From assembly GCA_034422835.1 (NCBI GenBank), contig DAOUJJ010000005.1, positions 74,891 to 138,890 of the forward strand: DNA of 64,000 bases. The letters run 5' to 3'. Shown here piece by piece: positions 5,176 through 64,000 of the stretch. Both the position numbers and the translations under genes were made by a program. Under the pieces are notes generated by a model, which worked only from the letters and a program-made list of their open reading frames with translations, was not told where the DNA came from and ran no database searches. Each line of letters starts with the position of its first letter. The first letter of the stretch is position 1. This DNA comes from Dehalococcoidia bacterium. Lineage in GTDB: Bacteria > Chloroflexota > Dehalococcoidia > UBA6926.

Positions 5176-5178
5176 GGG

Positions 5179-6394: not shown

Positions 6395-6470
6395 AAGGCG
6401 ACTCCAAACCTACCTACACGATACCACAGAGAGCCTAAGCGACAGGCTAGTTGAGACGGGTTATCAGAGG

Positions 6471-7189: not shown

Positions 7190-7204
7190 GACGCCTCCTC
7201 GATC

Positions 7205-7245
7205 AGAATACTAGTCTAATATAGACCAGATTATTGAAACTGTGT
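7205..7245 (-). promoter_or_regulatory. AT-rich promoter/operator region upstream of vapB with near-palindrome TAGTCTAATATAGACCA
   Basis: Only strongly AT-rich stretch in the neighbourhood. It lies immediately 5' of the antitoxin start and contains an imperfect dyad, as expected for TA autoregulation. Confidence 0.35.
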
Positions 7246-7302
7246 TGGTTGTAGCAAGGACATCATTGATTTCAGGTCGACGGAGGCTGGCCCACCTCTG
7301 TA

Positions 7303-8370: not shown

Positions 8371-8372
8371 TG

Positions 8373-9485: not shown

Positions 9486-9486
9486 G

Positions 9487-10161: not shown

Positions 10162-10201
10162 ACCCATAGAGAGATTATGGGGGAGAGGGACGTAGCGCGG
10201 C

Positions 10202-50030: not shown

Positions 50031-50094
50031 GACGGTTCCCTGCTTTTCCTGTTGCCGCGCGGCACGCGTCTCCGTACAATATGCCGCAATACCT

Positions 50095-52428
50095 ATGACA
50101 TCATCGCCCGCGTCGCTGCAAGAGCGATACGACATTATTGCCGCCCTGCCCGGGACATCCCTGTATTCAGTCTATTCCGCCATCGAACGTGAAAGCGGCG
50201 ATGCGGTAGAAATCCGAGAGCCGCGTGTTCGCGCCCTTGAGAATACGTCCACGCTGGGGCCGTTTCACTCGCTCATGGACCGGCATCTGGATGTCCATCA
50301 TGCGCATCTGGGCAGATTGTTGGAAATCCACCCGGACGGCGAGACATTCTGGATGGTGTATGAGCCGGCGCGCGGCGAGCAGCTCCGCGGATGGCTCACA
50401 CGAGGGCTGCAGCTTGATGAGGCGCTGCAGCTCATAGCTCAGGCAGCGTCGGGACTACAGGCGCTGCATGACGCAGGCCTCATCCACGGTGACGTTAATT
50501 CTCGCGATGTCTTTGTCACGCCCGTGTCCGGCGCGCAGCTCCGGAACGCCGGGCTGTCCGAGTTGTCTATCAGTATGAGCGGCCTGCAGTCGTCTCTGCA
50601 GATTCCTCTGCCCGCATTCATGGCGCCGGAGGTCCTGCGCGGTTCCGAGCCGGGGCCAAAGTCGGACATCTTCTCACTCGGCATGGTGCTGTATGAGACG
50701 CTGACCGGCCATTTGCCCTTCACCGGCAACAATCGTGACACCGTGCGGGTTAAGCAGCAGGAGGGGCGTATCGCGCCTGTTACCGCGCTGAACCCTGCAC
50801 TGCCCGCCGCGCTGGACGAGATTGTGGGCAGGGCGCTTGCATGGGACCCGAACGAGCGCTTCGCATCCGCGCAGGAGATGCGGGAAACGCTGTTGGAGTT
50901 TCGGAACAACCTCCCCATGCCGGAGGCGCAGATTGTTGTCCCCGACGAGGCTGCGCGGCAGGAGATCCTGGAGGACATCGCTCAATTCGAGCCAACGCGC
51001 ATGAGCGTGGATGGGGACGGAACAGGCAAGTTCCGCGTTTGCGGGGAGTGCCTCGCCATCAATCTTGCAAGCGTGACACGCTGCGCTGTGTGCTGGCGGG
51101 ATATTCGAGATGCGCCCGTGCTGAGTCGCACTGAGGCAGAGGAATTTGCGCAGGGCACTCAACGCCGGCGAACCAGACAGAAGTGGGTACGCCGCGGAGC
51201 AGTCGCCTTTGCCGTGCTCGCCCTGCTCGTCCTGTTCATCTATGACCGCGGCGCTCCGCCCGGCCTTTTGACCGGCCCCCCAACAACCACGCTAACGGCG
51301 CAAATCGGCGACGGCCTGTGGACGACTCCGCGTGGCGGGGCCGCCAGCATGGGCAGCGCCACTACCGTAGATGCCGTGCCGCAGGGAGTTGAGCGCTGGC
51401 GCACGGAAATCGGGGCGGAGGTGACGTCGTCGCCGACAATCGCCGATGGCCGCGTATTCGTCACGACTCTCGATGCCCGGATCTTTGCATATTCGACTGA
51501 AGACGGTTCACTGATCTGGGAACGGCCGGGGCCCGGCCCAATGGACGCGTCGCCAATAGTCGCGGATGATCGGCTCTACATCGCATACAGAAATTCGAGA
51601 TTGGCCGCGCTTGAAGCCGACACCGGTGAGACAATCTGGGAATCCGTGATCTCGAACCCGCTTTTCTCCTGGGTCAACGTTGCTGATGGCAGCGTGTACC
51701 TTTCGTCCCAGAACGGCGTGATCCAGGCGTTTGATGCCGGAACAGGCGAGAAGCGATGGGAGATAGAGACCGGAGACGGTATGTTCGCGCCTCCATCCAT
51801 CAGCGAGGGGATGGTCATCATCCCGACGCGGGGCAACCAGGTTCTTGTTCTCGTCGGCGAGACGGGGCAGACACGGCTCAGTTATGTTGTTCCCGCCGCG
51901 GTTGAGGGGGCCGCTGCGGTGAGTCACGGTACGGCCGCGTTCGGCGACGTGCGCGGATTCATTTACGCCATCGACATCCGAGCACAGAACCTTCCATTCG
52001 AAAAGACAGTTCTCAGATTCTGGGCCCAGTTCGCCATCTGGGGTCTCGCCCCTTTCCCGCCTGCGCAGAGCGGCACGGCATGGACTCACAGCATTCGGGA
52101 AGAGGTCTGGGCTGACGCAGCCATCGCTGGCAATCGCGCATTCTTCGCAACGCGAGAGGGCAATGTCTACGCTTTCACTCTTACCGGCGGCCAGGAACTG
52201 TGGAAGACGGCGCTGGGCGACGAGCCTGCCTGGGCCGGCTCGCCCACGGTCGTAGATGACGTGCTGTACGTCGGATCACAAGACGGGCGCCTCTATGCTC
52301 TTGACACAGTCACAGGCGACCACGTGTGGAGCCTTGACCTCGAGTACTCGGTGTCCTCAGCGCCGGCCTATGCTGACGGCGGCCTCTTTGTGCTGACCGA
52401 CAACGGCACGCTCTACGCTTTCGAGTAG
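50095..52428 (+). CDS. membrane-anchored protein with a kinase-fold (predicted pseudokinase) domain, zinc-ribbon, TM and PQQ-repeat beta-propeller
   Basis: The N-terminal roughly 270 aa align to Ser/Thr protein kinases (APE: FMAPEV; SDIFSLGMVLYETLTGHLPF). Catalytic residues are substituted: the VAIK Lys becomes Arg (VEIRE), HRD becomes HGD, the catalytic-loop K becomes N and N becomes D (HGDVNSRD), and DFG becomes NAG. A CGECLA…CAVCW zinc ribbon follows, then the TM AVAFAVLALLVLFIY, then about 400 aa of repeated PQQ-like WxxxxG… motifs (LIWER…, TIWES…, KRWEI…, ELWKT…, HVWSL…). Confidence 0.75.
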   Translation: MTSSPASLQERYDIIAALPGTSLYSVYSAIERESGDAVEIREPRVRALENTSTLGPFHSLMDRHLDVHHAHLGRLLEIHPDGETFWMVYEPARGEQLRGWLTRGLQLDEALQLIAQAASGLQALHDAGLIHGDVNSRDVFVTPVSGAQLRNAGLSELSISMSGLQSSLQIPLPAFMAPEVLRGSEPGPKSDIFSLGMVLYETLTGHLPFTGNNRDTVRVKQQEGRIAPVTALNPALPAALDEIVGRALAWDPNERFASAQEMRETLLEFRNNLPMPEAQIVVPDEAARQEILEDIAQFEPTRMSVDGDGTGKFRVCGECLAINLASVTRCAVCWRDIRDAPVLSRTEAEEFAQGTQRRRTRQKWVRRGAVAFAVLALLVLFIYDRGAPPGLLTGPPTTTLTAQIGDGLWTTPRGGAASMGSATTVDAVPQGVERWRTEIGAEVTSSPTIADGRVFVTTLDARIFAYSTEDGSLIWERPGPGPMDASPIVADDRLYIAYRNSRLAALEADTGETIWESVISNPLFSWVNVADGSVYLSSQNGVIQAFDAGTGEKRWEIETGDGMFAPPSISEGMVIIPTRGNQVLVLVGETGQTRLSYVVPAAVEGAAAVSHGTAAFGDVRGFIYAIDIRAQNLPFEKTVLRFWAQFAIWGLAPFPPAQSGTAWTHSIREEVWADAAIAGNRAFFATREGNVYAFTLTGGQELWKTALGDEPAWAGSPTVVDDVLYVGSQDGRLYALDTVTGDHVWSLDLEYSVSSAPAYADGGLFVLTDNGTLYAFE

Positions 52429-53536: not shown

Positions 53537-55867
53537 CTACCCCTGCGCGTCCTGGATGGCGCGCCAGACACGCTCGGGCGTTAGCGGCATCTCAATGTGG
53601 CTGACACCGAGAGGAGAAAGTGCATCGACGACCGCGTTTACCACGGCGGACGGCGCGCCCGTCGTCGGGCCTTCGCCCATTCCCTTGACACCCAGTGAGT
53701 TCAGCGGGGAGGGCGTCTCCGAAAACGCCACGACGAATTCCGGCGTCATCTCAGCCGTCGGTATCGCATAATCCATCAGCGAGGCATTCAGGAGCTGTCC
53801 GGCCTGATCGTATTCGGAAATCTCGTACAGTGCCTGGCCGATGCCCTGCGTCGCGCCGCCATGCACCTGCCCCACCACCGTCATCGGGTTCACGATGACA
53901 CCCTGATCGTCGACGGTGTACAGGCGCTGTAGGTCAACGTCACCTGTTTCGATGTCTACATCAACGACGGCGATATACGTGCCGAAGTTGTACGTAAGGC
54001 CGCTCGGCTGGAAGAACGAGTCCTCATCCAGGCCGAATTCCATATCCGCCGGGCGCGCGAGCACCTGGAAAGACGCGTCGGCAACCTCGGCGAACGGGAG
54101 TCGTCGCTCCCCGTCCGTGGTGCAGATGAACACGCCGCCTTCCAGCGTTACCTGATCCGGCTCGCAGTTCATCATGTGGGCGGCGAGTTTCAGCATCTTG
54201 TCGCGCACCTTTTCGGCGGCGATCTTGGCGGACATGCCGCCCGTCACAAGCGCGCGGCTGCCGTATGTCCCGACTCCGTGCGCGATGGTGGCCGTGTCGC
54301 CATGGAGAACGGTCACGTCGGCATCTGAAATGCCAAAAACGTCGGCGACTATCTGGGCAAAGACGGTCTCGCCGCCCTGCCCATGTGGGGACGAGCCGGT
54401 GAACAGCGTGACCTTGCCGCCGCGGTCAACACGCACCCTGCCCCATTCGTAGCGGCTGCTGCTGGGATCAACCGGGCTGGGGCCGGAGCCGCCCGTCTTG
54501 ACCCAAGAGGCGATGCCGACGCCCATGTGACGCCCCTCCGCCCGTGCCTGCTGCTGCTGTTCTCGCAGTTGCTGATAGCTGCTGAGCTCCATGACTTGAT
54601 CCAAGGAGGCTTCGTAGTTTCCGCTGTCGAAAACATCCCCGCCGCCCGAGCGCATCGGCTGATCAAACGGCGGGAGGTAGTTGCGGCGTCGAATCTCTGT
54701 TGGATCGAGGCCAAGCTCACTGGCAAGTCGGTCCAGTCCGCGCTCGATGAGGTGAATGCCCTCCGGCCTGCCCGCGCCGCGGTACGGTCCCTGCGGCGTT
54801 GTATTCGTGTAGCCGTTCTCGACCTCGAATTCCACATTGGGTATGTCGTAGACACCGGTTGAAATCATGGCGGATGAGGCGGACAAGGACGGCTCAGGCC
54901 CCTTGGCGTACGCGCCGAGATCATGCAGATGGCGCACGCGGAGGCCGGTCAACTTGCCGTCCGCATCTGCGGAAACCTCCAGGTAGGATGTCTTGCCGCG
55001 CGCCTGGTGCATCGCCAAAAAGTCCTCGGTGCGCGTGGCAACCCACTTGACGGGCACGCCAAGCTGCATCGAGGCGATGCAGATGAGCGCATACTCCGGG
55101 TCCTCATGCTTCACGCCGAAACCGCCGCCAACATCCGGCGCAACCACGCGGACGCTGTCATTCGTCAGATGCAGGATCTCGGCAAGGTGATCACGCAGCG
55201 CGTGCGGCGTTTGAACCGTCGCCCACAGGCTCATCGTCTCCTGTACGGCGTCCCAGTGCGCGAGGCCGGCGCGGGGTTCCATCGGCACACCATGGATCTT
55301 CTGGTTCACGATCCGTTCACGAACGATAACCGCGGCCTCCTCGAATGCCTGGGAGACGTTCCCGAGTTGATAGCGCCAGTGGATGATCCCGTTCGGTCGG
55401 TCGTCATGGACGCGCGGGGCATCGTCTCTCAGCGCTTTCTCCACCTCGATTGCCGCCTCCAGCGGCTCGTAGTCGACAAAGATGAGGTCCGCCGCGTCCC
55501 GCGCTCCGTAGCGGGTATCAGCAACGACTACAGCGACAACTTCGCCGACATGTCGCGCCTTATCGACTGCAATCAGGTCATATGGAGCCGATTCCGCGTC
55601 GTAAAACTTCAGAGAGACGGTTGGATTGGTGCCGAATCGCGGGTGAATATCCTTTCCTGTCAGCACTGCGGTGACGCCGGGCGTCTGCAAGGCTGTCGAG
55701 GTGTCGATGCTGCGGATGCGCGCATGGGCGTGTGGACTGCGGACAAGGCTGGCCCATTGGATGCCGGGAACCTTGATGTCCTCGACAAACGCGCCGCGGC
55801 CACGCAGGAGCTTGTCATCCTCCCGCCGGGCGACCGACTGACCAACGAGTTTCGTATCCGTGGCCAT
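53537..55867 (-). CDS. form-II CoxL-like molybdopterin-binding large subunit (paralogue L')
   Basis: Shows MATDTKLVGQSVARREDDKLLRGRGAFVEDI and the active-site loop GPYRGAGRPEG (AYRGAGR type, not the AYXCSFR of bona fide CO dehydrogenase). The start is placed at ATG 55865-55867 with an AAAGGA Shine-Dalgarno, 20 nt after the FAD-subunit stop. Confidence 0.85.
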   Translation of the reverse strand: MATDTKLVGQSVARREDDKLLRGRGAFVEDIKVPGIQWASLVRSPHAHARIRSIDTSTALQTPGVTAVLTGKDIHPRFGTNPTVSLKFYDAESAPYDLIAVDKARHVGEVVAVVVADTRYGARDAADLIFVDYEPLEAAIEVEKALRDDAPRVHDDRPNGIIHWRYQLGNVSQAFEEAAVIVRERIVNQKIHGVPMEPRAGLAHWDAVQETMSLWATVQTPHALRDHLAEILHLTNDSVRVVAPDVGGGFGVKHEDPEYALICIASMQLGVPVKWVATRTEDFLAMHQARGKTSYLEVSADADGKLTGLRVRHLHDLGAYAKGPEPSLSASSAMISTGVYDIPNVEFEVENGYTNTTPQGPYRGAGRPEGIHLIERGLDRLASELGLDPTEIRRRNYLPPFDQPMRSGGGDVFDSGNYEASLDQVMELSSYQQLREQQQQARAEGRHMGVGIASWVKTGGSGPSPVDPSSSRYEWGRVRVDRGGKVTLFTGSSPHGQGGETVFAQIVADVFGISDADVTVLHGDTATIAHGVGTYGSRALVTGGMSAKIAAEKVRDKMLKLAAHMMNCEPDQVTLEGGVFICTTDGERRLPFAEVADASFQVLARPADMEFGLDEDSFFQPSGLTYNFGTYIAVVDVDIETGDVDLQRLYTVDDQGVIVNPMTVVGQVHGGATQGIGQALYEISEYDQAGQLLNASLMDYAIPTAEMTPEFVVAFSETPSPLNSLGVKGMGEGPTTGAPSAVVNAVVDALSPLGVSHIEMPLTPERVWRAIQDAQG

Positions 55868-55887
55868 GTCTTTGTCCTTTCTCGCGG

Positions 55888-56760
55888 TTATTCCCGGGCG
55901 CGCTCCACCGCCTGCGTGAGCGCGCGTTTGGTCAGCACGCGGCACAGATTCTGCCGATACTCCGGGGATCCGTGCAGGTCTGCAATGCACTCAAGGCCAT
56001 CCGCCGCCATGGCGGACGCCGCTGCAATGGCGTCCGGTGTCGGCACCTGCCCTCTCAGCGTCTCTTCGACGGCCGTTGCGCGGGCTGCGCGCGACGCCGC
56101 GCCGGTGATGCCCACGGCGACACGGGACAGGTAACCGCTGTCATCCAACGAAACGGCCGCGGCCACGCCGACGATGGCAAAGTGTGACGCCTTGTTCGCG
56201 AATTTGAGATAAGCCGCGCCCGTCCGCCCCTCTGAGATGGGGATGATAATCTCCGTGATGATCTCGTCCTCGGCAAGCGTTGTGATGAACGCGTCCATGA
56301 TGAGTTCATCAACGGATACGACGCGCACGCCGTTCGGCCCTGCAATCTCAACCTGCGCGTCAAGCGCAAGCAAGGTGGCGGGATAGTCGGCGACGGGGTC
56401 GGCGTGCGCGATGCTGCCGCCGAGCGTGCCGAGATTCCGCACCTGCACATCTGCGATCTCCGCGGCCGTTTCAGCCAGGACCGGAATCGTGTCAAGGACG
56501 ACGTCGGACCCGGCGACGTGAGCATGACTCGTCATCGAGCCGATTCGCAGATTGTTGCCGTCCGAGCTGATGTGGGACAACTCGCCGCGCGTCTTGCGCA
56601 AATCAACCACGAGGCCGGGCATGGCGACGCGGAGCTTCATCATCGGAAGGAGGCTCTGACCACCGGCAATGACCTTACCCTCGCCGGGCCGCTGTTGAAG
56701 GAGGATGATTGCCTCCGCAACAGAATCAGGGGCGGCGTAGTCGAATGCTCCGGGAATCAT
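55888..56760 (-). CDS. xanthine-dehydrogenase-family FAD-binding medium subunit (CoxM-like)
   Basis: Shows MIPGAFDYAAPDSVAEAI…GGQSLLPMMKLR. Its ATG overlaps the upstream L-subunit TGA (ATGA). Confidence 0.85.
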   Translation of the reverse strand: MIPGAFDYAAPDSVAEAIILLQQRPGEGKVIAGGQSLLPMMKLRVAMPGLVVDLRKTRGELSHISSDGNNLRIGSMTSHAHVAGSDVVLDTIPVLAETAAEIADVQVRNLGTLGGSIAHADPVADYPATLLALDAQVEIAGPNGVRVVSVDELIMDAFITTLAEDEIITEIIIPISEGRTGAAYLKFANKASHFAIVGVAAAVSLDDSGYLSRVAVGITGAASRAARATAVEETLRGQVPTPDAIAAASAMAADGLECIADLHGSPEYRQNLCRVLTKRALTQAVERARE

Positions 56761-59120
56761 GACTGATCTCCATTCTGCGCGTCCTGTATGGCGCGCCACA
56801 CGCACTCCGGCGTTAGCGGCATCGCGATGTCACGAACATTGAACGGGGCGAGAGCGTCAACAACTGCGTTGACCACGGCGGGGGGCGCGCCCGTCGTCGG
56901 CCCCTCTCCCATGCCCTTGACACCGAGTGGATTAGTTGGCGACGGAGTCTCGATGAATTCGGAGATGAATTCCGGCATCATCTCCGCCGTCGGCAGCGCA
57001 TAGTCCATTAGGGACCCGCTGAGCAGCTGGCCGTTCTCGTCGTAGACGATGTCCTCATAGAGCGCCTGGCCGATTCCCTGCGCTGCGCCGCCGTGAACCT
57101 GCCCCTCCACGATGACCGGATGCACGACCACGCCCTGGTCATCCACGCAGAACAATTGCTGCAGGTCTACGTCGCCTGTTTCAGGATCAACCTCCACCAC
57201 AGCGACATATGTGCCGTAGTTGAAGGTGAGGTGAGTCGGCTGGTAGAACGACGATTCGTCCAGTCCCATTTCCATGCTGGGCGGCCGCTCCAAGACCTGG
57301 TTGATTCGGGCAGCAACCTCGCGGAAGGTGATTGACGAGCCGTTGGCTGCGAACACGCCGTCCGTGAACTGCACGCCGTCCGGCTCTGCACCCAACGTGT
57401 GGGCAGCGAACCGGGTCATCTTTGCGAGGATCTTCTGGGAAGCCTGGAGCACGGCCATTCCGCCCACAACCATGTTCCGGCTGGCGAATGTGCCCATGCC
57501 ATACGTCACTGTCGCCGTATCACCGTGTGTGACGGAGATGTCGTCCAGTGGGACATGAAGAGTGTCCGCTGCCACCTGCGCGTAGGTTGTGTAGTTGCCC
57601 TGCCCGTGCGGCGAGGAACCCGTGTAGATGGTCACTGCTCCAGCGGGAGACACCTTCACACGCGCCCACTCAGGCATGGACGAGGAAGGGTCGAGGGACG
57701 ACGGGCCGAAGCCGCCGGTCTTGACCCAGGACGCGAGCCCGATCCCCAGATATTTCCCGTCTTCGCGCATTTCGCGTTGCCGCGCGCGCAAGCCCTCGTA
57801 GTCACTGACCTCAAGAGCCCGCTCCAGCGCCTCGGGGTAGTTTCCGCTGTCGTAGATGTCTCCGCCGGGCGTGCGGTAGTACGGGAACTCCTCCGGTTGG
57901 ATCATGTTCCGCCTGCGGATTTCCGCAGGGTCGATGTCGAGGTCACGCGCCAGCATGTCCATGGCGCGTTCGATCAGGTAGATTCCCTCGGGTCGACCGT
58001 ACCCGCGGTAGGCCCCCTCCGGCGTGTGGTTGGTGTAGACGGAATGGACTTCAAACGCGGCCTCTCGAATGCCATAGACACCGGTCGCGATGATGGCGGA
58101 TGTTTGCGCGACGATTGGAGTTGCGCCCTTGGGAAACGCGCCCAAATCCGTAGTGTGGCGGAGGCGCAGCGCCTTGACGCGACCGTCACGATCGGCGGCA
58201 ATCTCAAACTCCGAGGTTTTTCCACGCGCGTGGCTGAGGGATAGGAACTCTTCCGTGCGCGATGCAGCCCACTTGACCGGCAAGCCGAGCTCCATTGACG
58301 CGATGGCCAGAAGGAAGTACTCGACCTCTCCACCGTGTTTCGCGCCAAATCCCCCGCCGACGTCCGGCGCGACGGAGCGAATCTGATCGGGAGAAATGCC
58401 CAGCACCTCCGCCATCTGCGTTCGCAGTTCATGCGCACCCTGGATGGATGCCCAGATAGTCAGGAACTGCGTGGCGGGGTCCCAGTGGGCGATGCCGGCG
58501 CGCGGCTCCATGGGGACAGCGTGAATTCGCTGGTTGTTGAAATCATGCCGCAGGATAATCTCGGAGTCCTCGAACGTGCGGGACACATTCTCCGTGCTCT
58601 TGAGCCACCGAACCTGCTCATTGGAGCGGCCGTCATGCACTTCAGGCGCGCCGGGCTCCATCGCCTGCTCCGGTGTGTTGGCTACCCGCAGCGGCTCATA
58701 GTCGACTCTCAGCAGATCAGCCGCGTCGCGCGCCGCCTCCCGCGTCTCTCCAACGACAATGGCAACGATTTCCCCGGCGTACTTGGCCTTGTTCCTGGCG
58801 ATGAGGGTGAACGCGGGAGCGCCGCCTTCGTTGTCGCGATTCTCCGCGTCTCGCACGGCGAGAACGGGCGGAATCGGGTTATAGCGCGGATGGACATCCT
58901 CTCCGGTGAGAACACGCAGCGCTCCCGGATGAGCCAGCGCAGCCGAAGAATCGATATTGAGGATGCGGGCGTGAGCATGCGGGCTGCGGACGAAGTGCGC
59001 CCAGACGGTTCCAGGTATGTTGATGTCGTCGGAGAACGCGCCCTGCCCACGCAGCAGGCGATCATCTTCCTTGCGCCGGGGCGACTGGCCGATCTGACGA
59101 GGCGGGCTGTCTGTGGTCAT
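56757..59120 (-). CDS. form-II CoxL-like molybdopterin-binding large subunit (paralogue L)
   Basis: Shows MTTDSPPRQIGQSPRRKEDDRLLRGQGAFSDDI and the active-site loop GAYRGYGRPEG. The start is ATG 59118-59120 with a GGTGAGGTGAG Shine-Dalgarno, 10 nt after the S-subunit stop. Confidence 0.85.
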   Translation of the reverse strand: MTTDSPPRQIGQSPRRKEDDRLLRGQGAFSDDINIPGTVWAHFVRSPHAHARILNIDSSAALAHPGALRVLTGEDVHPRYNPIPPVLAVRDAENRDNEGGAPAFTLIARNKAKYAGEIVAIVVGETREAARDAADLLRVDYEPLRVANTPEQAMEPGAPEVHDGRSNEQVRWLKSTENVSRTFEDSEIILRHDFNNQRIHAVPMEPRAGIAHWDPATQFLTIWASIQGAHELRTQMAEVLGISPDQIRSVAPDVGGGFGAKHGGEVEYFLLAIASMELGLPVKWAASRTEEFLSLSHARGKTSEFEIAADRDGRVKALRLRHTTDLGAFPKGATPIVAQTSAIIATGVYGIREAAFEVHSVYTNHTPEGAYRGYGRPEGIYLIERAMDMLARDLDIDPAEIRRRNMIQPEEFPYYRTPGGDIYDSGNYPEALERALEVSDYEGLRARQREMREDGKYLGIGLASWVKTGGFGPSSLDPSSSMPEWARVKVSPAGAVTIYTGSSPHGQGNYTTYAQVAADTLHVPLDDISVTHGDTATVTYGMGTFASRNMVVGGMAVLQASQKILAKMTRFAAHTLGAEPDGVQFTDGVFAANGSSITFREVAARINQVLERPPSMEMGLDESSFYQPTHLTFNYGTYVAVVEVDPETGDVDLQQLFCVDDQGVVVHPVIVEGQVHGGAAQGIGQALYEDIVYDENGQLLSGSLMDYALPTAEMMPEFISEFIETPSPTNPLGVKGMGEGPTTGAPPAVVNAVVDALAPFNVRDIAMPLTPECVWRAIQDAQNGDQS

Positions 59121-59130
59121 GACACTCACC

Positions 59131-59610
59131 TCACCTGGAAAGTTGCTCCGCCGCGAATTCGATCGCCAGGACGATGTTCTGGTACCCCGTGCATCGACAC
59201 ATATTGCCCGCAAGCGCGTGACGTATTTCGTCACGGGTGGGGTTCGGGTTCTCGTTGAGGAGCGCCTTGGAGAGCATCAACATGCCGGGCGTGCAGAAAC
59301 CACATTGCAGTCCGTGCTTCTCCGCAAACGCCTGTTGGATGGGATGCAGATCGCCATCCGCGGCGGCAAGGCCCTCCACGGTCTCAATCTCTTGCCCGTC
59401 CGCCTGCGCGGCAAGCATCGAGCATGACTTGACCGCTTCCCCGTTAAGCAGAACCGTGCATGAGCCGCACTGGGACGTATCGCAACCGACGTGTGTGCCC
59501 GTCAGGCCGATGACATCACGGATGGCGTGAACAAGCAATAAGCGCGGCTCAACGTCTATGGAATGCTCGGTATTGTTGACGGTTAACGTAATTGACACCA
59601 AATCAGCCAT
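59131..59610 (-). CDS. (2Fe-2S)-binding small subunit (CoxS-like)
   Basis: Shows CxxGxCGxCxV…C (plant-type) and the C-terminal CGFCTPG…CRCTGY cluster motifs. The start is ATG 59608-59610 with a GGAGGGGAGG Shine-Dalgarno. Confidence 0.85.
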   Translation of the reverse strand: MADLVSITLTVNNTEHSIDVEPRLLLVHAIRDVIGLTGTHVGCDTSQCGSCTVLLNGEAVKSCSMLAAQADGQEIETVEGLAAADGDLHPIQQAFAEKHGLQCGFCTPGMLMLSKALLNENPNPTRDEIRHALAGNMCRCTGYQNIVLAIEFAAEQLSR

Positions 59611-59685: not shown

Positions 59686-59752
59686 CAACCGCTCGTGGTG
59701 AGCCTGTCGAACCATGAACAGAACGCCCTTCGACAAGCTCAGGGCGAGCGGG
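59686..59752. repeat. imperfect 23-nt inverted repeat containing family-B motif copy 3 (CCTTCGACAAGCTCAGGGCGAGCGG)
   Basis: Left arm CCGCTCGTGGTGAGCCTGTCGAA pairs with right arm TTCGACAAGCTCAGGGCGAGCGG at about 20 of 23 positions, around a 16-nt spacer. It lies in the coxG-coxS intergenic gap. Confidence 0.65.
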
Positions 59753-59756: not shown

Positions 59757-60200
59757 CTATCCCTGCGCAGCAGCCTCTCGTGAGAGAGCCTCAAAGAACT
59801 GCCCCATCAGCATCCGCACGGCGGTCTGGATCATGCGCGATCCGATCTGCGCCAACGTCCCGCCCACCTGCGCGTCTGCCTCAACAGCGACAAGCGTGCC
59901 GTCACCGTCGGGGGAGAGTGTGATCGCGCCCTCTCCGGAGACGAAACCTGTCGGCCCCTGCCCACTCAGCGTCATCTTGTATGACTCGTTGACGGCAATG
60001 TCTTCAATTTCCACCGTGCCGTTGAATCGTCCCCTGATTGGACCAACGCCAACCGCAAGCATCGCGGAGAATTTTGTGGGCGTCTCCACGTCAAGGCTCT
60101 GACATCCCGGAACCATCCGCTGCAAAGCAACGGGGTCATGCAGCAATTCCCACACACGCTCACGCGGCGCATGGACGGTATGGCTGCCGCTGATGTTCAT
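59757..60200 (-). CDS. coxG: CoxG-like SRPBCC-fold protein (carbon monoxide dehydrogenase subunit G family)
   Basis: 147 aa with the MNISGSHTVHAPRERVWELLHDPVALQRMVPGCQSL… CoxG N-terminal signature. Confidence 0.75.
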   Translation of the reverse strand: MNISGSHTVHAPRERVWELLHDPVALQRMVPGCQSLDVETPTKFSAMLAVGVGPIRGRFNGTVEIEDIAVNESYKMTLSGQGPTGFVSGEGAITLSPDGDGTLVAVEADAQVGGTLAQIGSRMIQTAVRMLMGQFFEALSREAAAQG

Positions 60201-60205
60201 GCGGG

Positions 60206-61198
60206 TTAGTCAGTCGGTCCTGCGACGGGTGTGGCCGGGCGCGGCGGCTCAATAGCCACGCGCATTCCCTCTTCAAGTTGCCCGCGCACATCGTCGATGC
60301 TGGTGAGATGATGTTGTTCCACATAGGTCTTCAACCCGTCGATGACGTCCAGCATCGTTGTGGGACGTGTGAAATTGGCGGTGCCGACCGCGACGGCCGT
60401 CGCGCCCGCAAGGATGAACTCTAACGCATCCTTGGCAGACGTGATGCCGCCCATCCCGATAACAGGGAGCGAAACTGCAGCGCACACCTGCCAGACCATG
60501 CGAACGGCAATGGGACGGATGGCGGGACCGGAGACGCCGCCGGTCATCGTGCCCGTGACGGTTCTCTGATTGTCCACGTCGATAACCATGCCGGACAGGG
60601 TGTTGATGGCGGAGATGGCCGTCGCACCGCCCTGCTCTGAGGCCTGCGCGATATCAGCGATATTGGTGATATTCGGCGTGAGCTTGGCGATGACGGGGCC
60701 ATCGAAACGGTCCGACACGCCGCGCACAACGCGTTCAACATTGGCCGGGCTTGCGCCGATCTCCATGCCGCCCGCCTCAAGGTTCGGGCAGGAGATATTG
60801 ACCTCAAGCCCCGCGACGCCCGGTTCGCCGTTCAGCCGCTCAGCAAGGCGGTCGTATTCCTCGATCCCCAGCCCGCCGATGCTCACGACGACGGGCGAAT
60901 CGTACTTCGTATACTCGGGCAGGAGCTCGGTGAGGAAATGCTCGACGCCGCGCGACGGGATGCCGATGGAGTTGAGCATTCCGGCGGGAGATTCGGCGGT
61001 GCGGGGGGCGGGATTGCCTGCGCGTTCACCGTAGAAGATGGTCTTGGGAACGAGCGCGCCGAGCCGGCCAAGGTCAAACAGGGTTCCCATCTCCGGCCCG
61101 AAACAGCCGGATGCGGGCATGACCGGATTCTTGAGGGTCAGCCCGGCGCCGAGGTCAACCCCTAGCCTGCTGTCGGTCTCAGTGTCCTGTACGGCCAT
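60206..61198 (-). CDS. dihydroorotate-dehydrogenase-like flavoprotein, catalytic subunit (class 1B PyrD fold; possible dihydropyrimidine dehydrogenase subunit)
   Basis: Shows LKNPVMPASGCFGPE, …VNISCPNLEAGG… (active-site Cys) and …GGVSGPAIRPIA…, a TIM-barrel FMN enzyme of the DHOD/DPD family. Confidence 0.8.
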   Translation of the reverse strand: MAVQDTETDSRLGVDLGAGLTLKNPVMPASGCFGPEMGTLFDLGRLGALVPKTIFYGERAGNPAPRTAESPAGMLNSIGIPSRGVEHFLTELLPEYTKYDSPVVVSIGGLGIEEYDRLAERLNGEPGVAGLEVNISCPNLEAGGMEIGASPANVERVVRGVSDRFDGPVIAKLTPNITNIADIAQASEQGGATAISAINTLSGMVIDVDNQRTVTGTMTGGVSGPAIRPIAVRMVWQVCAAVSLPVIGMGGITSAKDALEFILAGATAVAVGTANFTRPTTMLDVIDGLKTYVEQHHLTSIDDVRGQLEEGMRVAIEPPRPATPVAGPTD

Positions 61199-61201
61199 CC
61201 C

Positions 61202-62119
61202 CTATACAGTAACGCCTGCCGGGTGACAGCGAAAGACGGGGCCGTCACGGCATACGAGCGGTGATTCCGCCGACTCCCCAAACGCGCCCGTTGCGCAGGA
61301 ATGGCAGTAGCCCAGACCGCAGGCCATATGGGCCTCAAGGGAGACGTACGTCTCAACATCCGCAGGAGCGGCGAGTCGGGTTGTCAGTTCGATCAGGCGG
61401 TTAGAGCCGCAGACGTAGGCCTGGTCGACGCGGCCCGAGTCAATGATCTCGCTGATCCACGGCTCCACGTTCCTGACGTCGCTGCTCCCATCAGCATCGT
61501 CGACATAGAGGGCGTGGCCGCGAGCCCTTTTGATGATGTCTTGCCCAAGGATGACATTCTTGTTGCGGGCGCTGAACACCGCGTATATCTCGATATTGCG
61601 CTGCTTGGCCTCGTCGATAAGCGTTGTCAGGGAACACACGCCGATGCCGCGCCCCACGATAAGAATGCCGTTGGCGTCATCGGAAATCGGGAATGGCCTC
61701 CCTACGGGGCCGACAATCTCCACGATATCCCCCGCCCTGCGCTGTGCCATCGCCGCCGTTCCATACCCCACAACGCGATAGACAAAATCAGCAGTGCCCG
61801 CCGCCTTGTCATAGCGATAAACGGCCATGGGGCGCGGCAGGATGGGGTGGACGTCCGTCGCTGAGCCGGGACGGATCACGCCGAATTGACCCGGCTCGCC
61901 GTTCGCCAATGCCTCGGAGCGCACGCGCATCAGATAGTGCTCCGGCGCGATCTCGTCGTTGGAGATGATCTCGGTTTCGACGAATGTCGCAGGCGGCGTA
62001 TGCGACCCGTTCGTGCGCATCACTTCCAGCCGCACGCTGGACGGCAGCCGTAGTTGCGGGACGTGCGTACCCGCGAAAACGGGAATCGTCCCGTTGGCGT
62101 CCATGAGTTCAGCTGTCAT
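61202..62119 (-). CDS. PyrK-like electron-transfer subunit (FAD/NAD-binding plus C-terminal [2Fe-2S])
   Basis: An FNR-like flavin domain plus the C-terminal MACGLGYCHSCATG…C cysteine cluster characteristic of PyrK. Overlaps the amidase gene by 4 nt. Confidence 0.75.
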   Translation of the reverse strand: MTAELMDANGTIPVFAGTHVPQLRLPSSVRLEVMRTNGSHTPPATFVETEIISNDEIAPEHYLMRVRSEALANGEPGQFGVIRPGSATDVHPILPRPMAVYRYDKAAGTADFVYRVVGYGTAAMAQRRAGDIVEIVGPVGRPFPISDDANGILIVGRGIGVCSLTTLIDEAKQRNIEIYAVFSARNKNVILGQDIIKRARGHALYVDDADGSSDVRNVEPWISEIIDSGRVDQAYVCGSNRLIELTTRLAAPADVETYVSLEAHMACGLGYCHSCATGAFGESAESPLVCRDGPVFRCHPAGVTV

Positions 62120-63453
62120 TCGGCAACCTCTTTCGTCAGGAAGGAGTCAATGTCCCGGATGCTCTCCGCGAGCGCCTGCGCGCCGATGGCGATGTCCTCC
62201 ATGCTCGTCCATTCTTCCGGGCAGTGGCTGAGACCGTCGCGGCTCGGCACAAAGAGCATTGCGGCAGGGATGGTGCGAGAGAGGATGCCGGCATCGTGCC
62301 CCGCCCCGCTCGTCGTCACTCGGTGCGGCACGCCAAGGCGGTCCGTGGCTGCGGTGGTGAGATCACGCAGCCACTTGGGCAGCACCACGGGTGAGGTATC
62401 CGACACAACCTCCCAGTCACAGCGCAGTCCGCGGCGGGCAGCCGTTTCCTCAGCGCGCGTAACAATGTCATTCGTCGTCAGCCGTTGGCGGTCGCTGTCC
62501 ACGTCGCGCACGTCAAGATAGAACTCCACGTCGCCGGGGATGGTGGTGATGCTGTTGGGAAAGACGTGGAGACGTCCGACGGTAGCAACGGTGGCGCGGC
62601 GGCGCGGCTCATTAGCAATGGACTCCGCTGCAAGAATGACTTCAGCTGCGGCGGCCAACGCATCACGCCGCTGGGACATGGGGGTGCCGCCTGAATGGTC
62701 CTGGCGGCCTCGTATCACAAGACGGATGCGGGTGTTTCCCGCGATGGCGTCCACAAGGCCGATGCGCTCTCCCGATTCCTCCAGTGACCGCGCCTGCTCA
62801 ATGTGCAGCTCAAGGAAGGCGGCAAGAGTGTTCGGAGCCCATCGCGCCTGCGGCAAGGCAAGAGGATCGAAGCTCAGCGCGCGCATCGCTTGGGCGAGCG
62901 TGGTGCCGTTCGCGTCACGCAGTCGCTCAAGATCGCGTTCCTGCAGGACACCGGCTATAGCCTTGCTGCCAAGGCACGGCTCGCCGAATCGCGCGCCTTC
63001 CTCAGAGGCAAATGCAATCGCCATGAGCGGATGGGCTGTTTTGATGTCTGCTTCAGTGAACATGCGGATGACTTCCAGCGCGGCAAGAACGCCAACGGCT
63101 CCGTCAAATCGCCCGCCGTGCGGTACGGAATCAAGATGTGAGCCGAAACCGATAGCGGGCCGGTTCGGGTCAGTCCCGGGCAGTGTTGCGACTGTGTTGC
63201 CGAAACTGTCCGTGCGGACGGAGAGGCCGAGGTCTACCATCCAACCTGAGACAAGATCGTGGGCCGCGCGCTCTTCCTGCGAAAACGCAATGCGCGAGAC
63301 GCCGCTGCCCGGCTCTGCGCCAATCTCTGACAAGCGTTCCAAGTCGGCTGCGATACGGCCGGGATCGGCGCGCAGCTCAGAGACAGCGACCTCGGATTCC
63401 TCCGCCGCGTCCGCCGATCCGGCCGCGAGCTCCTGCTCAGTCGTTGCCATCAA
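62116..63453 (-). CDS. M20-family Zn-dependent carbamoyl-amidohydrolase (allantoate amidohydrolase / N-carbamoyl-amino-acid or beta-ureidopropionase type)
   Basis: 445 aa carrying metal-ligand motifs of the AllC/HyuC/AmaB family (GSHLDSVPHGGRFDGAVGVLAALE, …EEGARFG…, …DHSGGTPM…, …GAGHDAG…). Confidence 0.8.
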   Translation of the reverse strand: MMATTEQELAAGSADAAEESEVAVSELRADPGRIAADLERLSEIGAEPGSGVSRIAFSQEERAAHDLVSGWMVDLGLSVRTDSFGNTVATLPGTDPNRPAIGFGSHLDSVPHGGRFDGAVGVLAALEVIRMFTEADIKTAHPLMAIAFASEEGARFGEPCLGSKAIAGVLQERDLERLRDANGTTLAQAMRALSFDPLALPQARWAPNTLAAFLELHIEQARSLEESGERIGLVDAIAGNTRIRLVIRGRQDHSGGTPMSQRRDALAAAAEVILAAESIANEPRRRATVATVGRLHVFPNSITTIPGDVEFYLDVRDVDSDRQRLTTNDIVTRAEETAARRGLRCDWEVVSDTSPVVLPKWLRDLTTAATDRLGVPHRVTTSGAGHDAGILSRTIPAAMLFVPSRDGLSHCPEEWTSMEDIAIGAQALAESIRDIDSFLTKEVAE

Positions 63454-63931
63454 CCCTCACCCTTACTGATATGAGCGAAAGCTCGTTTGCAACCTCACCC
63501 ACCCCAACCAGGGAGGCGGTAACCGCCAACCTGCCGCCCCTGTTCTCGACGAAAGCCCTGGCAAGATTGGCGTCGCGTTCGCTGAGAGTAACGCCCACCA
63601 AGGCGACTTCCTGCCCCGCCCCAACGTTGCCGGAAGCCGTGACAAGCCCCTCTGCATCAGACAGCAGGATGACAGGCTTGTCTACTCGCACGCCGATGGC
63701 AAATGCTAACACGACGTTGGACAGCCCCGGCCACGCGGCGATGATATCAGGCGCAGGAGATGGCAGCGCGTCCGACAGGCATCCGGCCAGTTCAGAGACG
63801 GCAGTGGGATTCGCCAGCGGCTCCATCGCCCCGGCAACCCAGCCGCTTTGGCCGTCGTCGGAATCCTCCAACTGCCCCTCAATAAGGCAGCCGGTGGACT
63901 TTAAAAGGTCAACAATATTCGTGTCATTCAT
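63437..63931 (-). CDS. hypothetical protein (weak phosphoribosyltransferase-like impression only)
   Basis: 164 aa, acidic, overlapping the amidase by 17 nt. Good GC3 bias. There is no convincing motif. The segment VALVGVTLSERDA resembles a PRPP-binding loop only loosely. Confidence 0.4.
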   Translation of the reverse strand: MNDTNIVDLLKSTGCLIEGQLEDSDDGQSGWVAGAMEPLANPTAVSELAGCLSDALPSPAPDIIAAWPGLSNVVLAFAIGVRVDKPVILLSDAEGLVTASGNVGAGQEVALVGVTLSERDANLARAFVENRGGRLAVTASLVGVGEVANELSLISVRVRVDGND

Positions 63932-64000
63932 TGGACTAGGTGTTGTGGCGTATCTTTCTTGTTTACCGGGCTGCGTGTTGTCAAGTTTAAAACATTCAGA

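What the first reader, a model, noticed from the sequence alone, without database searches (positions are those of the whole stretch)
59757..63931. coxG + DHOD-like flavoprotein pair + M20 carbamoyl-amidohydrolase upstream of the Mo-hydroxylase genes: candidate N-heterocycle (pyrimidine-type) catabolic locus
Four genes sit directly upstream of the S-L-M-L' cluster on the same strand, with 4-17-nt overlaps. They are a short acidic hypothetical (63437-63931), an M20 allantoate/N-carbamoyl-amino-acid/β-ureidopropionase-type amidohydrolase, a PyrK-like FAD/[2Fe-2S] electron-transfer subunit and a PyrD-like FMN catalytic subunit with the class-1 active-site Cys. A PyrDK pair outside a pyr operon and coupled to a carbamoyl-amidase is what a reductive pyrimidine or dihydro-heterocycle pathway needs. 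That pathway would run as DPD-like reduction, ring opening, then N-carbamoyl hydrolysis. M20-type β-alanine synthases are known. The ring-opening dihydropyrimidinase or hydantoinase is not in the window and may lie just upstream. Combined with two Mo hydroxylases, this suggests an undescribed mixed oxidative/reductive degradation route for a pyrimidine, purine, hydantoin or nicotinate-like compound. It does not look like biosynthetic DHODH.
Basis: inference. Interest (0 to 1): 0.6.

Follow-up and report, generated by a model that had tools for sequence, protein, structure and literature searches.

The report
Orotate breakdown gene module in Dehalococcoidia
The four genes belong to a five-gene module found in three bacterial phyla that most likely breaks the pyrimidine precursor orotate down to aspartate, a 1950s pathway whose genes were never mapped, while its link to the neighbouring molybdenum enzymes looks loose.

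Summary
The genes are real and correctly typed: an M20 L-carbamoylase-type amidohydrolase, a divergent PyrK-like Fe-S flavoprotein, a canonical class-1B PyrD, and CoxG. The "acidic hypothetical" is a degenerate orotate phosphoribosyltransferase (OPRT) paralogue. Just beyond position 64000 lies a canonical pyrE, not a hydantoinase.

PRT-pseudoPRT-M20-PyrK-PyrD is a conserved cassette in Dehalococcoidia, other Chloroflexota and about 40 actinomycete genomes. A related set sits on alphaproteobacterial plasmids. Outside the window's lineage it travels with IclR regulators, importers (MFS, NMT1-ABC, TRAP), a genuine dihydroorotase paralogue and sometimes aspartase.

That enzyme set matches reductive orotate degradation: orotate to dihydroorotate to N-carbamoyl-aspartate to aspartate. 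It does not match a uracil/DPD-type or hydantoin route.

CoxG and the Mo hydroxylases occur only in the Dehalococcoidia lineages. In relatives unrelated genes separate them from the cassette, so coupling is unproven.

The substrate, the missing ring-opener and the Mo link are not as proposed.

I could not test whether this genome has another pyrD/pyrE. Its own locus lacks a regulator, transporter and dihydroorotase, so a biosynthetic or dual role remains possible.

The parts
63996..64000 (-). Last 5 nt (stop codon plus 2 nt) of pyrE, the first gene of the cassette. The rest of the gene lies beyond the window and is read in L001:6646-7203 (185 aa).
   Evidence: One search gives the context and the sequence. 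TIGR00336 pyrE 135.3 bits against a cutoff of 106.8; best PDB matches are OPRTs (3QW4 4.5e-26, 2WNS, 5HKF). The PRPP loop VLLVEDVVTTG is intact. A 64-nt gap separates it from the next gene.
63437..63931 (-). 'Hypothetical' 164-aa protein: a degenerate type-I phosphoribosyltransferase-fold protein (pseudo-OPRT). It lacks the PRPP-loop acidic pair.
   Evidence: No Pfam or NCBIfam hit. hhalign against the cassette PRT gives probability 77%, E 2e-5 over 132 columns. The profile against PDB hits OPRT 4PAW at 2.5e-7 and PurR at 1.6e-6. The AF2 model has pLDDT 82, and Foldseek's top matches are APRT/OPRT at TM 0.67-0.72. It always sits between PRT and M20. Only 81 representatives match among 1.84 billion proteins.
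62116..63453 (-). M20 hydantoinase/carbamoylase-family amidohydrolase. Candidate N-carbamoyl-L-aspartate amidohydrolase (ureidosuccinase). The likely start is the ATG at 63450.
   Evidence: TIGR01879 418 bits against 204; 3N5F L-N-carbamoylase 6e-99, against M20 beta-alanine synthases at 8.6e-61 and 2e-46. Its stop overlaps the PyrK start by 4 nt in every locus inspected.
61202..62119 (-). PyrK-like FAD/[2Fe-2S] electron-transfer subunit of a distinct, cassette-specific subfamily.
   Evidence: PF10418 only; below all PyrK equivalog cutoffs; four Cys are conserved, with RPMA in place of RPxS and GRGIG in place of GGGIG; best PDB match is L. lactis PyrK at 2.5e-26; patterns taken from this subfamily retrieve almost only cassette loci from 185,579 species genomes.
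60206..61198 (-). Class-1B dihydroorotate dehydrogenase catalytic subunit (PyrD), proposed to run as an NADH-dependent orotate reductase.
   Evidence: NF005574 369.5 bits against 269; PreA 159 against 335; 1EP1 7e-71. K52, N76, N134, C137, N139, K172 and N199 are invariant in 62 sequences, including L. lactis PyrDB.
59757..60200 (-). CoxG (SRPBCC) accessory protein. It belongs with the Mo-hydroxylase unit, not with the cassette.
   Evidence: PF06240 1e-26. It is present only where the Mo enzyme is present (groups A and B). In L014 an MmeI-type gene separates it from PyrD.
59131..59610 (-). Mo-hydroxylase [2Fe-2S] small subunit. It is preceded by a 146-nt spacer containing a palindromic element and a promoter-like hexamer pair.
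56757..59120 (-). Mo-hydroxylase large subunit L (signature AYRGYGR). This extra paralogue is present only in the closest relatives.
   Evidence: 57% identity to L'; more distant Dehalococcoidia have only S-M-L'.
55888..56760 (-). Mo-hydroxylase FAD-binding medium subunit.
53537..55867 (-). Mo-hydroxylase large subunit L' (signature PYRGAGR, form-II CoxL-like). Its substrate is unknown.
   Evidence: best PDB matches are CoxL 8UEM at 2.6e-160, quinoline 2-oxidoreductase and 6-hydroxypseudooxynicotine dehydrogenase.

Best explanation
The finding is the downstream four-fifths of a conserved five-gene cassette: OPRT (pyrE, just outside the window), pseudo-OPRT, M20 L-carbamoylase, PyrK-like and PyrD.

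The cassette most likely uses orotate (uracil-6-carboxylate) by the reductive route known biochemically from Clostridium oroticum.

1. PyrD/PyrK works in reverse as an NADH-dependent orotate reductase and makes L-dihydroorotate.
2. A dihydroorotase opens the ring to N-carbamoyl-L-aspartate. Actinomycete clusters encode this enzyme. This locus does not, so the housekeeping PyrC would have to do it.
3. The M20 enzyme hydrolyses the ureido group, giving L-aspartate, CO2 and NH3.
4. OPRT gives a salvage branch from orotate to OMP.
5. The pseudo-OPRT is a non-catalytic partner whose role is unknown.

Shown: the gene identities, the conserved residues and the cross-phylum synteny. Inferred: the direction of the PyrDK reaction, orotate as the substrate, N-carbamoyl-aspartate as the M20 substrate, and every physiological role.

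CoxG and the S-L-M-L' Mo hydroxylases form a separate neighbouring unit specific to this Dehalococcoidia lineage. Functional coupling to the cassette is possible, for example making orotate from a less oxidised heterocycle, but it is not supported beyond adjacency.
For: 1. The cassette PRT-hyp-M20-PyrK-PyrD is intact in every Chloroflexota context sampled, from 96% down to 42% PyrK identity.

2. It recurs, with permuted gene order, in about 40 Actinomycetota genomes. Among 42 such loci, 41 have IclR, 42 have a transporter, 40 have a dihydroorotase-like gene directly after PyrK, and 8 have an aspartate ammonia-lyase.

3. The actinobacterial ring-opener is a true dihydroorotase: NF006836 549 bits against 538, and 4e-86 to 4YIW/3MPG. 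It scores only 138 bits to dihydropyrimidinase. The lyase is aspartase (NF008909 715 against 510).

4. Alphaproteobacterial plasmids carry a regulator, a TRAP carboxylate importer, PyrK, PyrD, an M20 'Zn-dependent hydrolase' and OPRT. The module is therefore accessory in bacteria that normally use class-2 DHODH (Table 1 of PMC10395836).

5. All DHOD substrate and catalytic residues are invariant across 62 PyrDs. Cassette PyrDs from all three phyla pass the DHOD equivalog.

6. The M20 is closest to L-alpha-carbamoylases.

7. Where the cassette PRT degenerates (Streptomyces, Amycolatopsis) or is lost (Pseudonocardiaceae), M20, PyrK, PyrD and the dihydroorotase are kept. The carbamoylase end, not the OMP end, is therefore the essential one.

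8. C. oroticum DHOD is a class-1B enzyme (Argyrou et al. 2000, as cited in PMC10395836).
Against: - In the window's own lineage (groups A and B, 21 loci) the cassette has no adjacent regulator, importer or dihydroorotase. It sits among housekeeping genes (PGI, YchF).
- Its pyrE is fully canonical and is the most conserved cassette protein.
- The PyrD would be annotated as ordinary DHOD.
- These genomes are small, 1.6-2.4 Mb.
- I could not check whether another pyrD, pyrK, pyrE or pyrC exists in the genome.
- No enzyme activity or growth phenotype is available, and no paper on such a gene cluster was found.
- The role of the two PRT-fold proteins is unexplained. A futile cycle with de novo synthesis would need regulation, and none is visible here.
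Confidence: 0.6

Rival explanations
1. Biosynthetic or dual-use reading. In this small-genome Dehalococcoidia lineage, pyrE, PyrK and PyrD of the cassette are the housekeeping de novo pyrimidine enzymes. The M20 and the pseudo-OPRT are passengers or modulators. The locus is then an unusual pyr operon and not a catabolic one.
For: - PyrD passes the DHOD equivalog and pyrE passes TIGR00336.
- All catalytic residues are intact.
- PRT is the best-conserved cassette protein: 96% identity between loci whose PyrK is 77% identical.
- There is no regulator, transporter or dihydroorotase next to the cassette in 21 Dehalococcoidia loci.
- No other pyrD/pyrK turned up among the roughly 30 larger ORFs I scanned across the 64-kb window, or in the 7 kb upstream.
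- Genomes are only 1.6-2.4 Mb.
Against: - The PyrK belongs to the cassette-specific subfamily. That subfamily is accessory in actinomycetes and is plasmid-borne in Alphaproteobacteria.
- It fails all PyrK equivalog cutoffs.
- An enzyme that destroys a pathway intermediate is translationally coupled to PyrK and evolves at the same rate as PyrD.
- No PyrR attenuator or other Rfam element was found.
- In other Chloroflexota the same cassette is under IclR control with importers.
Confidence: 0.25
2. One reading: a DPD-like reductive route for uracil, thymine or a hydantoin, fed by the two Mo hydroxylases. The pathway would be mixed oxidative and reductive, with the M20 acting as beta-ureidopropionase or a generic carbamoylase.
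For: - M20-type beta-alanine synthases exist, and the M20 matches them at 1e-46 to 1e-60.
- The Mo unit is syntenic with the cassette in 20 of the 21 Dehalococcoidia loci (16 of 16 in group A, 4 of 5 in group B).
- Unrelated Mo hydroxylases lie near the cassette in 3 of 10 other Chloroflexota loci. In L060 they are in the same-strand array IclR-PyrK-PyrD-ABC-MoL-MoS-MoM-DHOase.
- The best PDB relatives of L' include N-heterocycle hydroxylases.
Against: - PyrD scores 159 against 335 for PreA and has the DHOD-type SCPN motif.
- There is no PreT-like partner.
- The partner cyclic amidohydrolase in 40 of 42 actinomycete loci is a dihydroorotase, not a dihydropyrimidinase.
- OPRT and aspartase point to orotate and aspartate.
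- No hydantoinase or racemase is present.
- The Mo unit is absent from all 42 actinomycete loci. In relatives it is separated from the cassette by MFS (opposite strand), MgtE, MmeI or cadherin genes.
- The genome has at least three Mo large subunits within 64 kb, so chance adjacency is plausible.
Confidence: 0.1

Closest known systems
Reductive orotate degradation of Clostridium oroticum: NADH orotate reductase (a class-1B DHOD), dihydroorotase and ureidosuccinase. This is classical enzymology recalled from my own knowledge. The class-1B assignment is cited in PMC10395836.
   Same: - Same predicted reaction order and enzyme types.
- Class-1B PyrD/PyrK with all orotate-binding residues.
- A dihydroorotase paralogue in the actinomycete clusters.
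- A carbamoyl-amidohydrolase that would yield aspartate.
   Different: - No gene cluster has been described for that pathway in the library I searched.
- Here the PyrK is a distinct subfamily.
- The amidase is an M20 L-carbamoylase homologue.
- Two PRT-fold proteins (an OPRT and a pseudo-OPRT) are integral.
- The hosts are Chloroflexota, actinomycetes and Alphaproteobacteria, not fermenting clostridia.
- The window's own locus lacks the dihydroorotase.
De novo pyrimidine operon genes pyrK-pyrD-pyrE of Gram-positive bacteria (class-1B DHODH, L. lactis 1EP1/5KSW)
   Same: - PyrD is 39% identical to L. lactis PyrDB with identical active-site residues.
- PyrK keeps the [2Fe-2S] cysteines.
- pyrE is canonical.
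   Different: - No pyrB, pyrC, carAB, pyrF or pyrR, and no PyrR attenuator.
- An M20 carbamoylase and a pseudo-OPRT are inserted and translationally coupled.
- The PyrK falls below the equivalog thresholds.
- Elsewhere the set is under IclR control with importers and aspartase.
Reductive pyrimidine catabolism: PreT/PreA or PydA, dihydropyrimidinase and beta-ureidopropionase
   Same: - The same three-step logic: reduce the C5=C6 bond, open the ring, hydrolyse the carbamoyl group.
- Homologous enzyme superfamilies at each step, the 'reaction module' idea of PMC4016543.
   Different: - The reductase is DHOD-type, not PreA-type.
- The ring-opener is a dihydroorotase.
- The amidase is closest to L-alpha-carbamoylases.
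- The product is aspartate, not beta-alanine.
Hydantoin-utilisation (hyu) clusters: hydantoinase, L-N-carbamoylase and racemase
   Same: - The M20 enzyme is most similar to hyu L-carbamoylases (3N5F, 6e-99).
- NitT/TauT-type or other importers are often adjacent.
   Different: No hydantoinase or racemase is present. A DHOD pair and OPRT are present instead.
Form-II CoxL-type molybdenum hydroxylases, such as quinoline 2-oxidoreductase and 6-hydroxypseudooxynicotine dehydrogenase
   Same: S, M and L subunits with the full domain set, a CoxG accessory protein, and an AYRGxGR-type signature.
   Different: - Two large subunits (57% identical) share one S and one M.
- No substrate can be assigned.
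- The scores are below every NCBIfam equivalog cutoff.

Membership tests
Class-1B dihydroorotate dehydrogenase, catalytic subunit PyrD | Sequence passes the curated DHOD model. | tested here: met
   NF005574 369.5 bits against 269; TIGR01037 308.9 against 270.
Class-1B dihydroorotate dehydrogenase, catalytic subunit PyrD | Catalytic Cys, plus the Lys and Asn residues that bind FMN and orotate. | tested here: met
   K52, N76, N134, C137, N139, K172 and N199 are identical to L. lactis PyrDB and invariant in 62 sequences.
Class-1B dihydroorotate dehydrogenase, electron-transfer subunit PyrK | Passes a curated PyrK equivalog model. | tested here: not met
   The best score is 133.7 against a cutoff of 219. 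Only the C-terminal Fe-S domain PF10418 is recognised by Pfam.
Class-1B dihydroorotate dehydrogenase, electron-transfer subunit PyrK | Four Cys of the [2Fe-2S] cluster, and the FAD/NAD motifs. | tested here: inconclusive
   The four Cys are invariant. The FAD motif reads RPMA instead of RPxS, and the NAD motif reads GRGIG instead of GGGIG.
De novo pyrimidine biosynthesis (housekeeping role) | It is the only DHOD and OPRT of the genome. | not testable with these tools
   Only the 64-kb window plus 7 kb upstream could be read. No other pyrD was seen among the ORFs scanned there. Whole-genome access was not available.
NAD-dependent dihydropyrimidine dehydrogenase PreA/PreT | Passes the PreA model; has a PreT partner and 4Fe-4S domains. 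| tested here: not met
   NF006183 158.8 against 335, covering residues 80-308 only. The partner is PyrK-like, not PreT-like.
Hydantoinase/carbamoylase-family M20 amidase (TIGR01879) | Passes the family model and has the M20 catalytic and dimerisation domains. | tested here: met
   418.3 bits against 204; NF006771 449.3 against 399; PF01546 and PF07687 present.
N-carbamoyl-L-aspartate amidohydrolase (ureidosuccinase, EC 3.5.1.7) | Hydrolyses N-carbamoyl-L-aspartate to aspartate. | not testable with these tools
   This is inferred only from context: DHOD, dihydroorotase and aspartase neighbours, and closest similarity to L-alpha-carbamoylases.
Orotate phosphoribosyltransferase (for the 164-aa 'hypothetical') | Type-I PRT fold. 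| tested here: met
   hhalign probability 77%. The profile against PDB hits 4PAW at 2.5e-7. Foldseek gives TM 0.67-0.72 to APRT/OPRT. Only one of the five AF2 models was confident.
Orotate phosphoribosyltransferase (for the 164-aa 'hypothetical') | PRPP-binding loop with two acidic residues followed by TTG, and the orotate-binding SGxxSxYYFD region. | tested here: not met
   VLLVEDVVTTG is replaced by VALVGVTLSER and the YYFD region is absent. No Pfam or NCBIfam PRT hit.
Reductive orotate degradation pathway | A ring-opening dihydroorotase is encoded with the reductase and the amidase. | tested here: not met
   It is absent from the window, from the 7 kb upstream and from all 21 Dehalococcoidia loci. 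It is present in 40 of 42 actinomycete loci.
Hydantoin utilisation (hyu) cluster | Hydantoinase and/or hydantoin racemase next to the carbamoylase. | tested here: not met
   Neither is in the window or upstream. The upstream Amidohydro_2 is an ACMSD/LigW-type decarboxylase homologue.
Xanthine-oxidase-family Mo hydroxylase (S/M/L) | Fer2/Fer2_2 in S; FAD_binding_5 plus CO_deh_flav_C in M; Ald_Xan_dh_C plus MoCoBD_1 and MoCoBD_2 in L. | tested here: met
Aerobic CO dehydrogenase, form I | Passes the CoxL equivalog and has the AYXCSFR active-site loop. | tested here: not met
   TIGR02416 606 and 590 bits against 991. The loops read AYRGYGR and PYRGAGR.

The most novel reading that the evidence does not exclude
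The cassette is the core of an undescribed, widely distributed orotate hub. In this reading the OPRT/pseudo-OPRT pair forms a non-catalytic or regulatory heterodimer that works with a dedicated orotate reductase and ureidosuccinase.

Lineage-specific funnel enzymes would convert still-unknown environmental N-heterocyclic carboxylates into orotate for use as nitrogen and carbon. The funnels would be the two Mo hydroxylases and the ACMSD-type decarboxylase in sponge or marine Dehalococcoidia, and the TRZ/ATZ-type deaminases in other Chloroflexota.
Probability: 0.15. Interest if true: 0.75.

Novelty: new variant of a known kind. Interest (0 to 1): 0.55.

Why it matters
Reductive orotate degradation is a textbook curiosity from 1950s clostridial enzymology. 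I found no genetic description of it.

If the cassette encodes that route, three things follow:
- Annotation pipelines are labelling hundreds of 'dihydroorotate dehydrogenase' and 'orotate phosphoribosyltransferase' genes in Chloroflexota, actinomycetes and Alphaproteobacteria as biosynthetic when they are catabolic.
- Orotate becomes a plausible exchanged nitrogen and carbon source in soil, groundwater and sponge or marine communities.
- A small uncharacterised family of pseudo-phosphoribosyltransferases gains a context in which its role can be tested.

The work also shows that the appealing 'Mo hydroxylase plus flavoprotein' hybrid pathway rests on adjacency alone.

Tried and rejected
- **Exact-sequence lookup of the M20 with its TTG start** found nothing. 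The PyrD lookup gave the contig instead.
- **Hydantoinase or dihydropyrimidinase beyond position 64000:** none.
- **Literature:** eight full-text searches on orotate catabolism, degradation or utilisation, ureidosuccinase, orotate reductase and carbamoylase found no paper on such a cluster. Barba et al. 2013 describe other DHOD-like families, X1 and X2, not this one.
- **Second pyrD/pyrE in the same genome:** I found no way to test this with the tools.
- **Co-transcription:** promoter and terminator scans gave counts at or below the shuffled expectation, so they say nothing.
- **Rfam:** no PyrR attenuator or riboswitch.
- **My GC3-based gene caller** for high-GC loci missed many genes. I replaced it with family HMMs searched against all stop-to-stop ORFs.
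- **The CoxG-S intergenic palindrome** is single-copy in the window.
- **Rejected readings:**
  - DapE/ArgE-type peptidase for the M20: only about 20 bits.
  - DPD/PreA for the PyrD.
  - A cyclic-amidohydrolase role for the upstream Amidohydro_2: it is a decarboxylase-family protein.

Full report
**Observation.** On the minus strand the window carries, in order:
- a 164-aa ORF (63437-63931);
- an M20 amidohydrolase (62116-63450/63453);
- a PyrK-like protein (61202-62119);
- a PyrD (60206-61198);
- CoxG (59757-60200);
- the Mo-hydroxylase genes S, L, M and L' (53537-59610).

The spacings follow from the coordinates and the gene calls:
- hyp/M20 overlap by 14-17 nt;
- M20/PyrK share an ATGA overlap;
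- PyrK/PyrD are 3 nt apart;
- PyrD/CoxG are 5 nt apart;
- CoxG and S are 146 nt apart.

- The M20 passes the hydantoinase/carbamoylase amidase family (418 against 204).
- The PyrD passes the DHOD equivalog (369.5 against 269).
- The PyrK-like protein does not reach any PyrK cutoff (134 against 219).

**What lies upstream.** An exact-match lookup of the PyrD found the same locus on a 164-kb metagenome scaffold (L001). The gene just beyond position 64000, on the same strand and 64 nt from the 164-aa ORF, is a canonical orotate phosphoribosyltransferase. It scores 135 against 107 on TIGR00336 and its PRPP loop is intact. Further upstream, in divergent orientation, lie:
- an HtrA-like protease;
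- an Amidohydro_2 protein whose solved relatives are LigW, ACMSD and iso-orotate decarboxylases;
- an asparaginase;
- PGI.

No hydantoinase or dihydropyrimidinase is present.

**The 'hypothetical' protein.** Several lines of evidence place it in the type-I phosphoribosyltransferase fold, closest to OPRT:
- profile-profile comparison with the cassette PRT: probability 77%, E 2e-5 over 132 columns;
- profile searches of the PDB: OPRT 4PAW at 2.5e-7 and PurR at 1.6e-6;
- an AlphaFold model with pLDDT 82, though only one of the five models was confident;
- Foldseek matches to APRT/OPRT at TM about 0.7.

It has lost the acidic PRPP loop and the orotate-binding segment. The family is tiny: 81 representatives match among 1.84 billion proteins. 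It has no Pfam model.

**A conserved cassette.** Homologues of the PyrK-like protein run continuously from 96% down to about 40% identity. All six contexts I sampled, at 77, 61, 54, 49, 44 and 42% identity, contain PRT-hyp-M20-PyrK-PyrD with the same M20/PyrK overlap.

I then scanned one genome per species (185,579 species) with patterns from this PyrK subfamily. The scan returned 79 loci. Mapping family HMMs onto all ORFs gave this picture:

| Group | Loci | Cassette | Neighbours |
|---|---|---|---|
| A, close Dehalococcoidia | 16 | full in all | divergent Amidohydro_2 16, asparaginase 16, CoxG 16, Mo hydroxylase 16; no regulator, dihydroorotase or cassette-linked importer (one stray ABC hit) |
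| B, more distant Dehalococcoidia | 5 | full in all | Amidohydro_2 5, asparaginase 2, CoxG 4, Mo hydroxylase 4; no regulator, dihydroorotase or cassette-linked importer (one stray ABC hit) |
| C, other Chloroflexota | 10 | full in 9 | IclR 4, importers 8, TRZ/ATZ-type deaminase 5, dihydroorotase-like 3, unrelated Mo hydroxylase 3 |
| D, Actinomycetota | 42 | gene order permuted; PRT 28, hyp 37, M20 40, PyrK and PyrD 42 | IclR 41, importer 42 (MFS or NMT1-type ABC), dihydroorotase-like directly after PyrK 40, Lyase_1 8, asparaginase 10, PrpD-like 10, Mo hydroxylase 0 |

The group D genera include Streptomyces, Amycolatopsis, Pseudonocardia, Prauserella and Nocardia. The typical order there is PyrD-(MFS)-IclR-PRT-hyp-M20-PyrK-dihydroorotase-like.

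The dihydroorotase-like gene passes a dihydroorotase equivalog (549 against 538) and matches solved dihydroorotases at 4e-86. It scores only 138 bits on the dihydropyrimidinase model. The Lyase_1 gene is aspartate ammonia-lyase (715 against 510).

A tblastn search of plasmids found a related set in Alphaproteobacteria: regulator, TRAP transporter, PyrK, PyrD, M20 'Zn-dependent hydrolase', OPRT and a small unrelated protein.

**Inference on function.**
- The recurring enzyme set matches, step for step, the reductive conversion of orotate to aspartate and on to fumarate. The set is a class-1B DHOD, a dihydroorotase, an L-carbamoylase and aspartase. It travels with carboxylate-type importers and IclR regulators.
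- Every residue that defines DHOD catalysis and orotate binding is invariant in 62 cassette PyrDs and identical to L. lactis PyrDB.
- The PyrD is far below the PreA threshold.
- The M20 is closest to L-alpha-carbamoylases.
- The window PyrD is more similar to actinobacterial (mean 52%) and alphaproteobacterial (47-49%) cassette PyrDs than to L. lactis PyrDB (39%).
- The cassette PRT has degenerated in Streptomyces and Amycolatopsis and is absent in Pseudonocardiaceae, while M20, PyrK, PyrD and the dihydroorotase persist. The carbamoylase end is therefore the indispensable one, which fixes the likely direction as catabolic.
- OPRT plausibly provides a salvage branch. The role of the pseudo-OPRT is unknown.
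- That C. oroticum's orotate-reducing enzyme is a class-1B DHOD is cited in PMC10395836. The rest of that pathway I cite from my own knowledge.
- I found no paper describing such a gene cluster. The DHOD-like families X1 and X2 of PMC4016543 are different.

**Caveat for this genome.** In the window's own lineage the cassette lacks the regulator, importer and dihydroorotase that make the catabolic reading compelling elsewhere. Several points leave the biosynthetic reading open:
- Its pyrE is canonical and very conserved.
- The genomes are small.
- No other pyr biosynthetic gene was seen among the window ORFs I scanned.
- No PyrR-type RNA element is present.

I could not examine the whole genome.

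**The Mo hydroxylases.** L and L' are 57% identical paralogues with form-II CoxL-like loops. The extra L exists only in the closest relatives.

Evidence that the Mo unit is separate from the cassette:
- CoxG co-occurs strictly with the Mo unit.
- In relatives the two units are separated by an opposite-strand MFS gene (L019, L020), by MgtE (L020), by an MmeI-type enzyme between PyrD and CoxG (L014), or by GSDH/cadherin genes (L004). The Mo unit must therefore have its own promoter in those genomes.
- The window has a third Mo large subunit at 30395-32626, so such operons are frequent in this genome.

Evidence in favour of a link:
- Unrelated Mo hydroxylases lie near the cassette in 3 of 10 other Chloroflexota loci.
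- One of these, L060, is a same-strand array with PyrK, PyrD, an ABC importer and a dihydroorotase.

I rate functional coupling as possible but unproven.

**Verdict.** The best explanation is a reductive orotate-utilisation cassette, a new genetic variant of a known biochemical route, next to a separate Mo-hydroxylase unit. Confidence is 0.6 for this locus and higher for the cassette family as a whole.

Noticed in passing
window 30395-32626 (-): A third Mo-hydroxylase large subunit (743 aa; Ald_Xan_dh_C, MoCoBD_1 and MoCoBD_2) lies about 21 kb from the S-L-M-L' cluster. The genome is rich in this family.
   Followed up: partly
window 2433-3746, 35332-36243, 36291-37322 (all -): Three two-domain glyoxalase/VOC-type (dioxygenase-like) paralogues occur in one 64-kb window. 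The first sits next to methylmalonyl-CoA mutase (3349-5013).
   Followed up: no
window 59689-59745 (-), CoxG-S spacer: The spacer holds a GC-rich palindromic element (cgccctgagcttgtcgaagggcg ... ttcgacaggctcaccacgagcgg) followed by a promoter-like TTGACC-18-TAGCAT. The element is single-copy in the window.
   Followed up: partly
L001:3286-4266 (-), conserved divergently upstream of the cassette in all 21 Dehalococcoidia loci: An Amidohydro_2 protein of the non-oxidative decarboxylase group (LigW 1e-41, ACMSD, iso-orotate decarboxylase 2.5e-24). Such an enzyme, acting on ortho-hydroxy or oxo (hetero)aromatic acids next to an orotate module, is suggestive but unexplained.
   Followed up: partly
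L045, L049, L052, L055, L058, L066, L068, L075, L079, L080; also L001:1946-3289: An asparaginase-family gene, and in actinomycetes also a PrpD/MmgE-family gene, recur with the cassette in two phyla. In Cryobacterium (L066) both sit inside the same-strand array. Their role in an orotate-to-aspartate route is unexplained.
   Followed up: partly
L006:12737-14104 and homologues in L033-L035, L038, L042: A TRZ/ATZ / 8-oxoguanine-deaminase-like amidohydrolase lies next to the cassette in other Chloroflexota. It is below all equivalog cutoffs. It could be a deaminating feeder step.
   Followed up: partly
L091 (Pacificitalea pDY25-A) and L092 (Nitratireductor pNK_1): The plasmid-borne alphaproteobacterial version of the module has a TRAP transporter and, after OPRT, a 106-aa helical hypothetical protein unrelated to the pseudo-OPRT.
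   Followed up: partly
(PLSDB search): 53 Klebsiella plasmids give a PyrK-like tblastn hit (E < 1e-20). I did not inspect them. They may carry a different PyrK-family oxidoreductase.
   Followed up: no
L046 (Nitriliruptorales MAG) 3947-10825: Two PyrK-like genes lie in one locus: PyrK-PyrD-IclR-PRT-hyp-M20-PyrK.
   Followed up: no
L014:11924-14788: An MmeI-type restriction-modification gene is inserted between PyrD and CoxG in a 95%-identical relative. This marks the junction as a recombination-tolerant boundary between two units.
   Followed up: partly
window 50029-52428 (+): A Ser/Thr protein kinase is fused to PQQ-like beta-propeller repeats. It is syntenic with YchF downstream of the Mo unit in relatives.
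   Followed up: no
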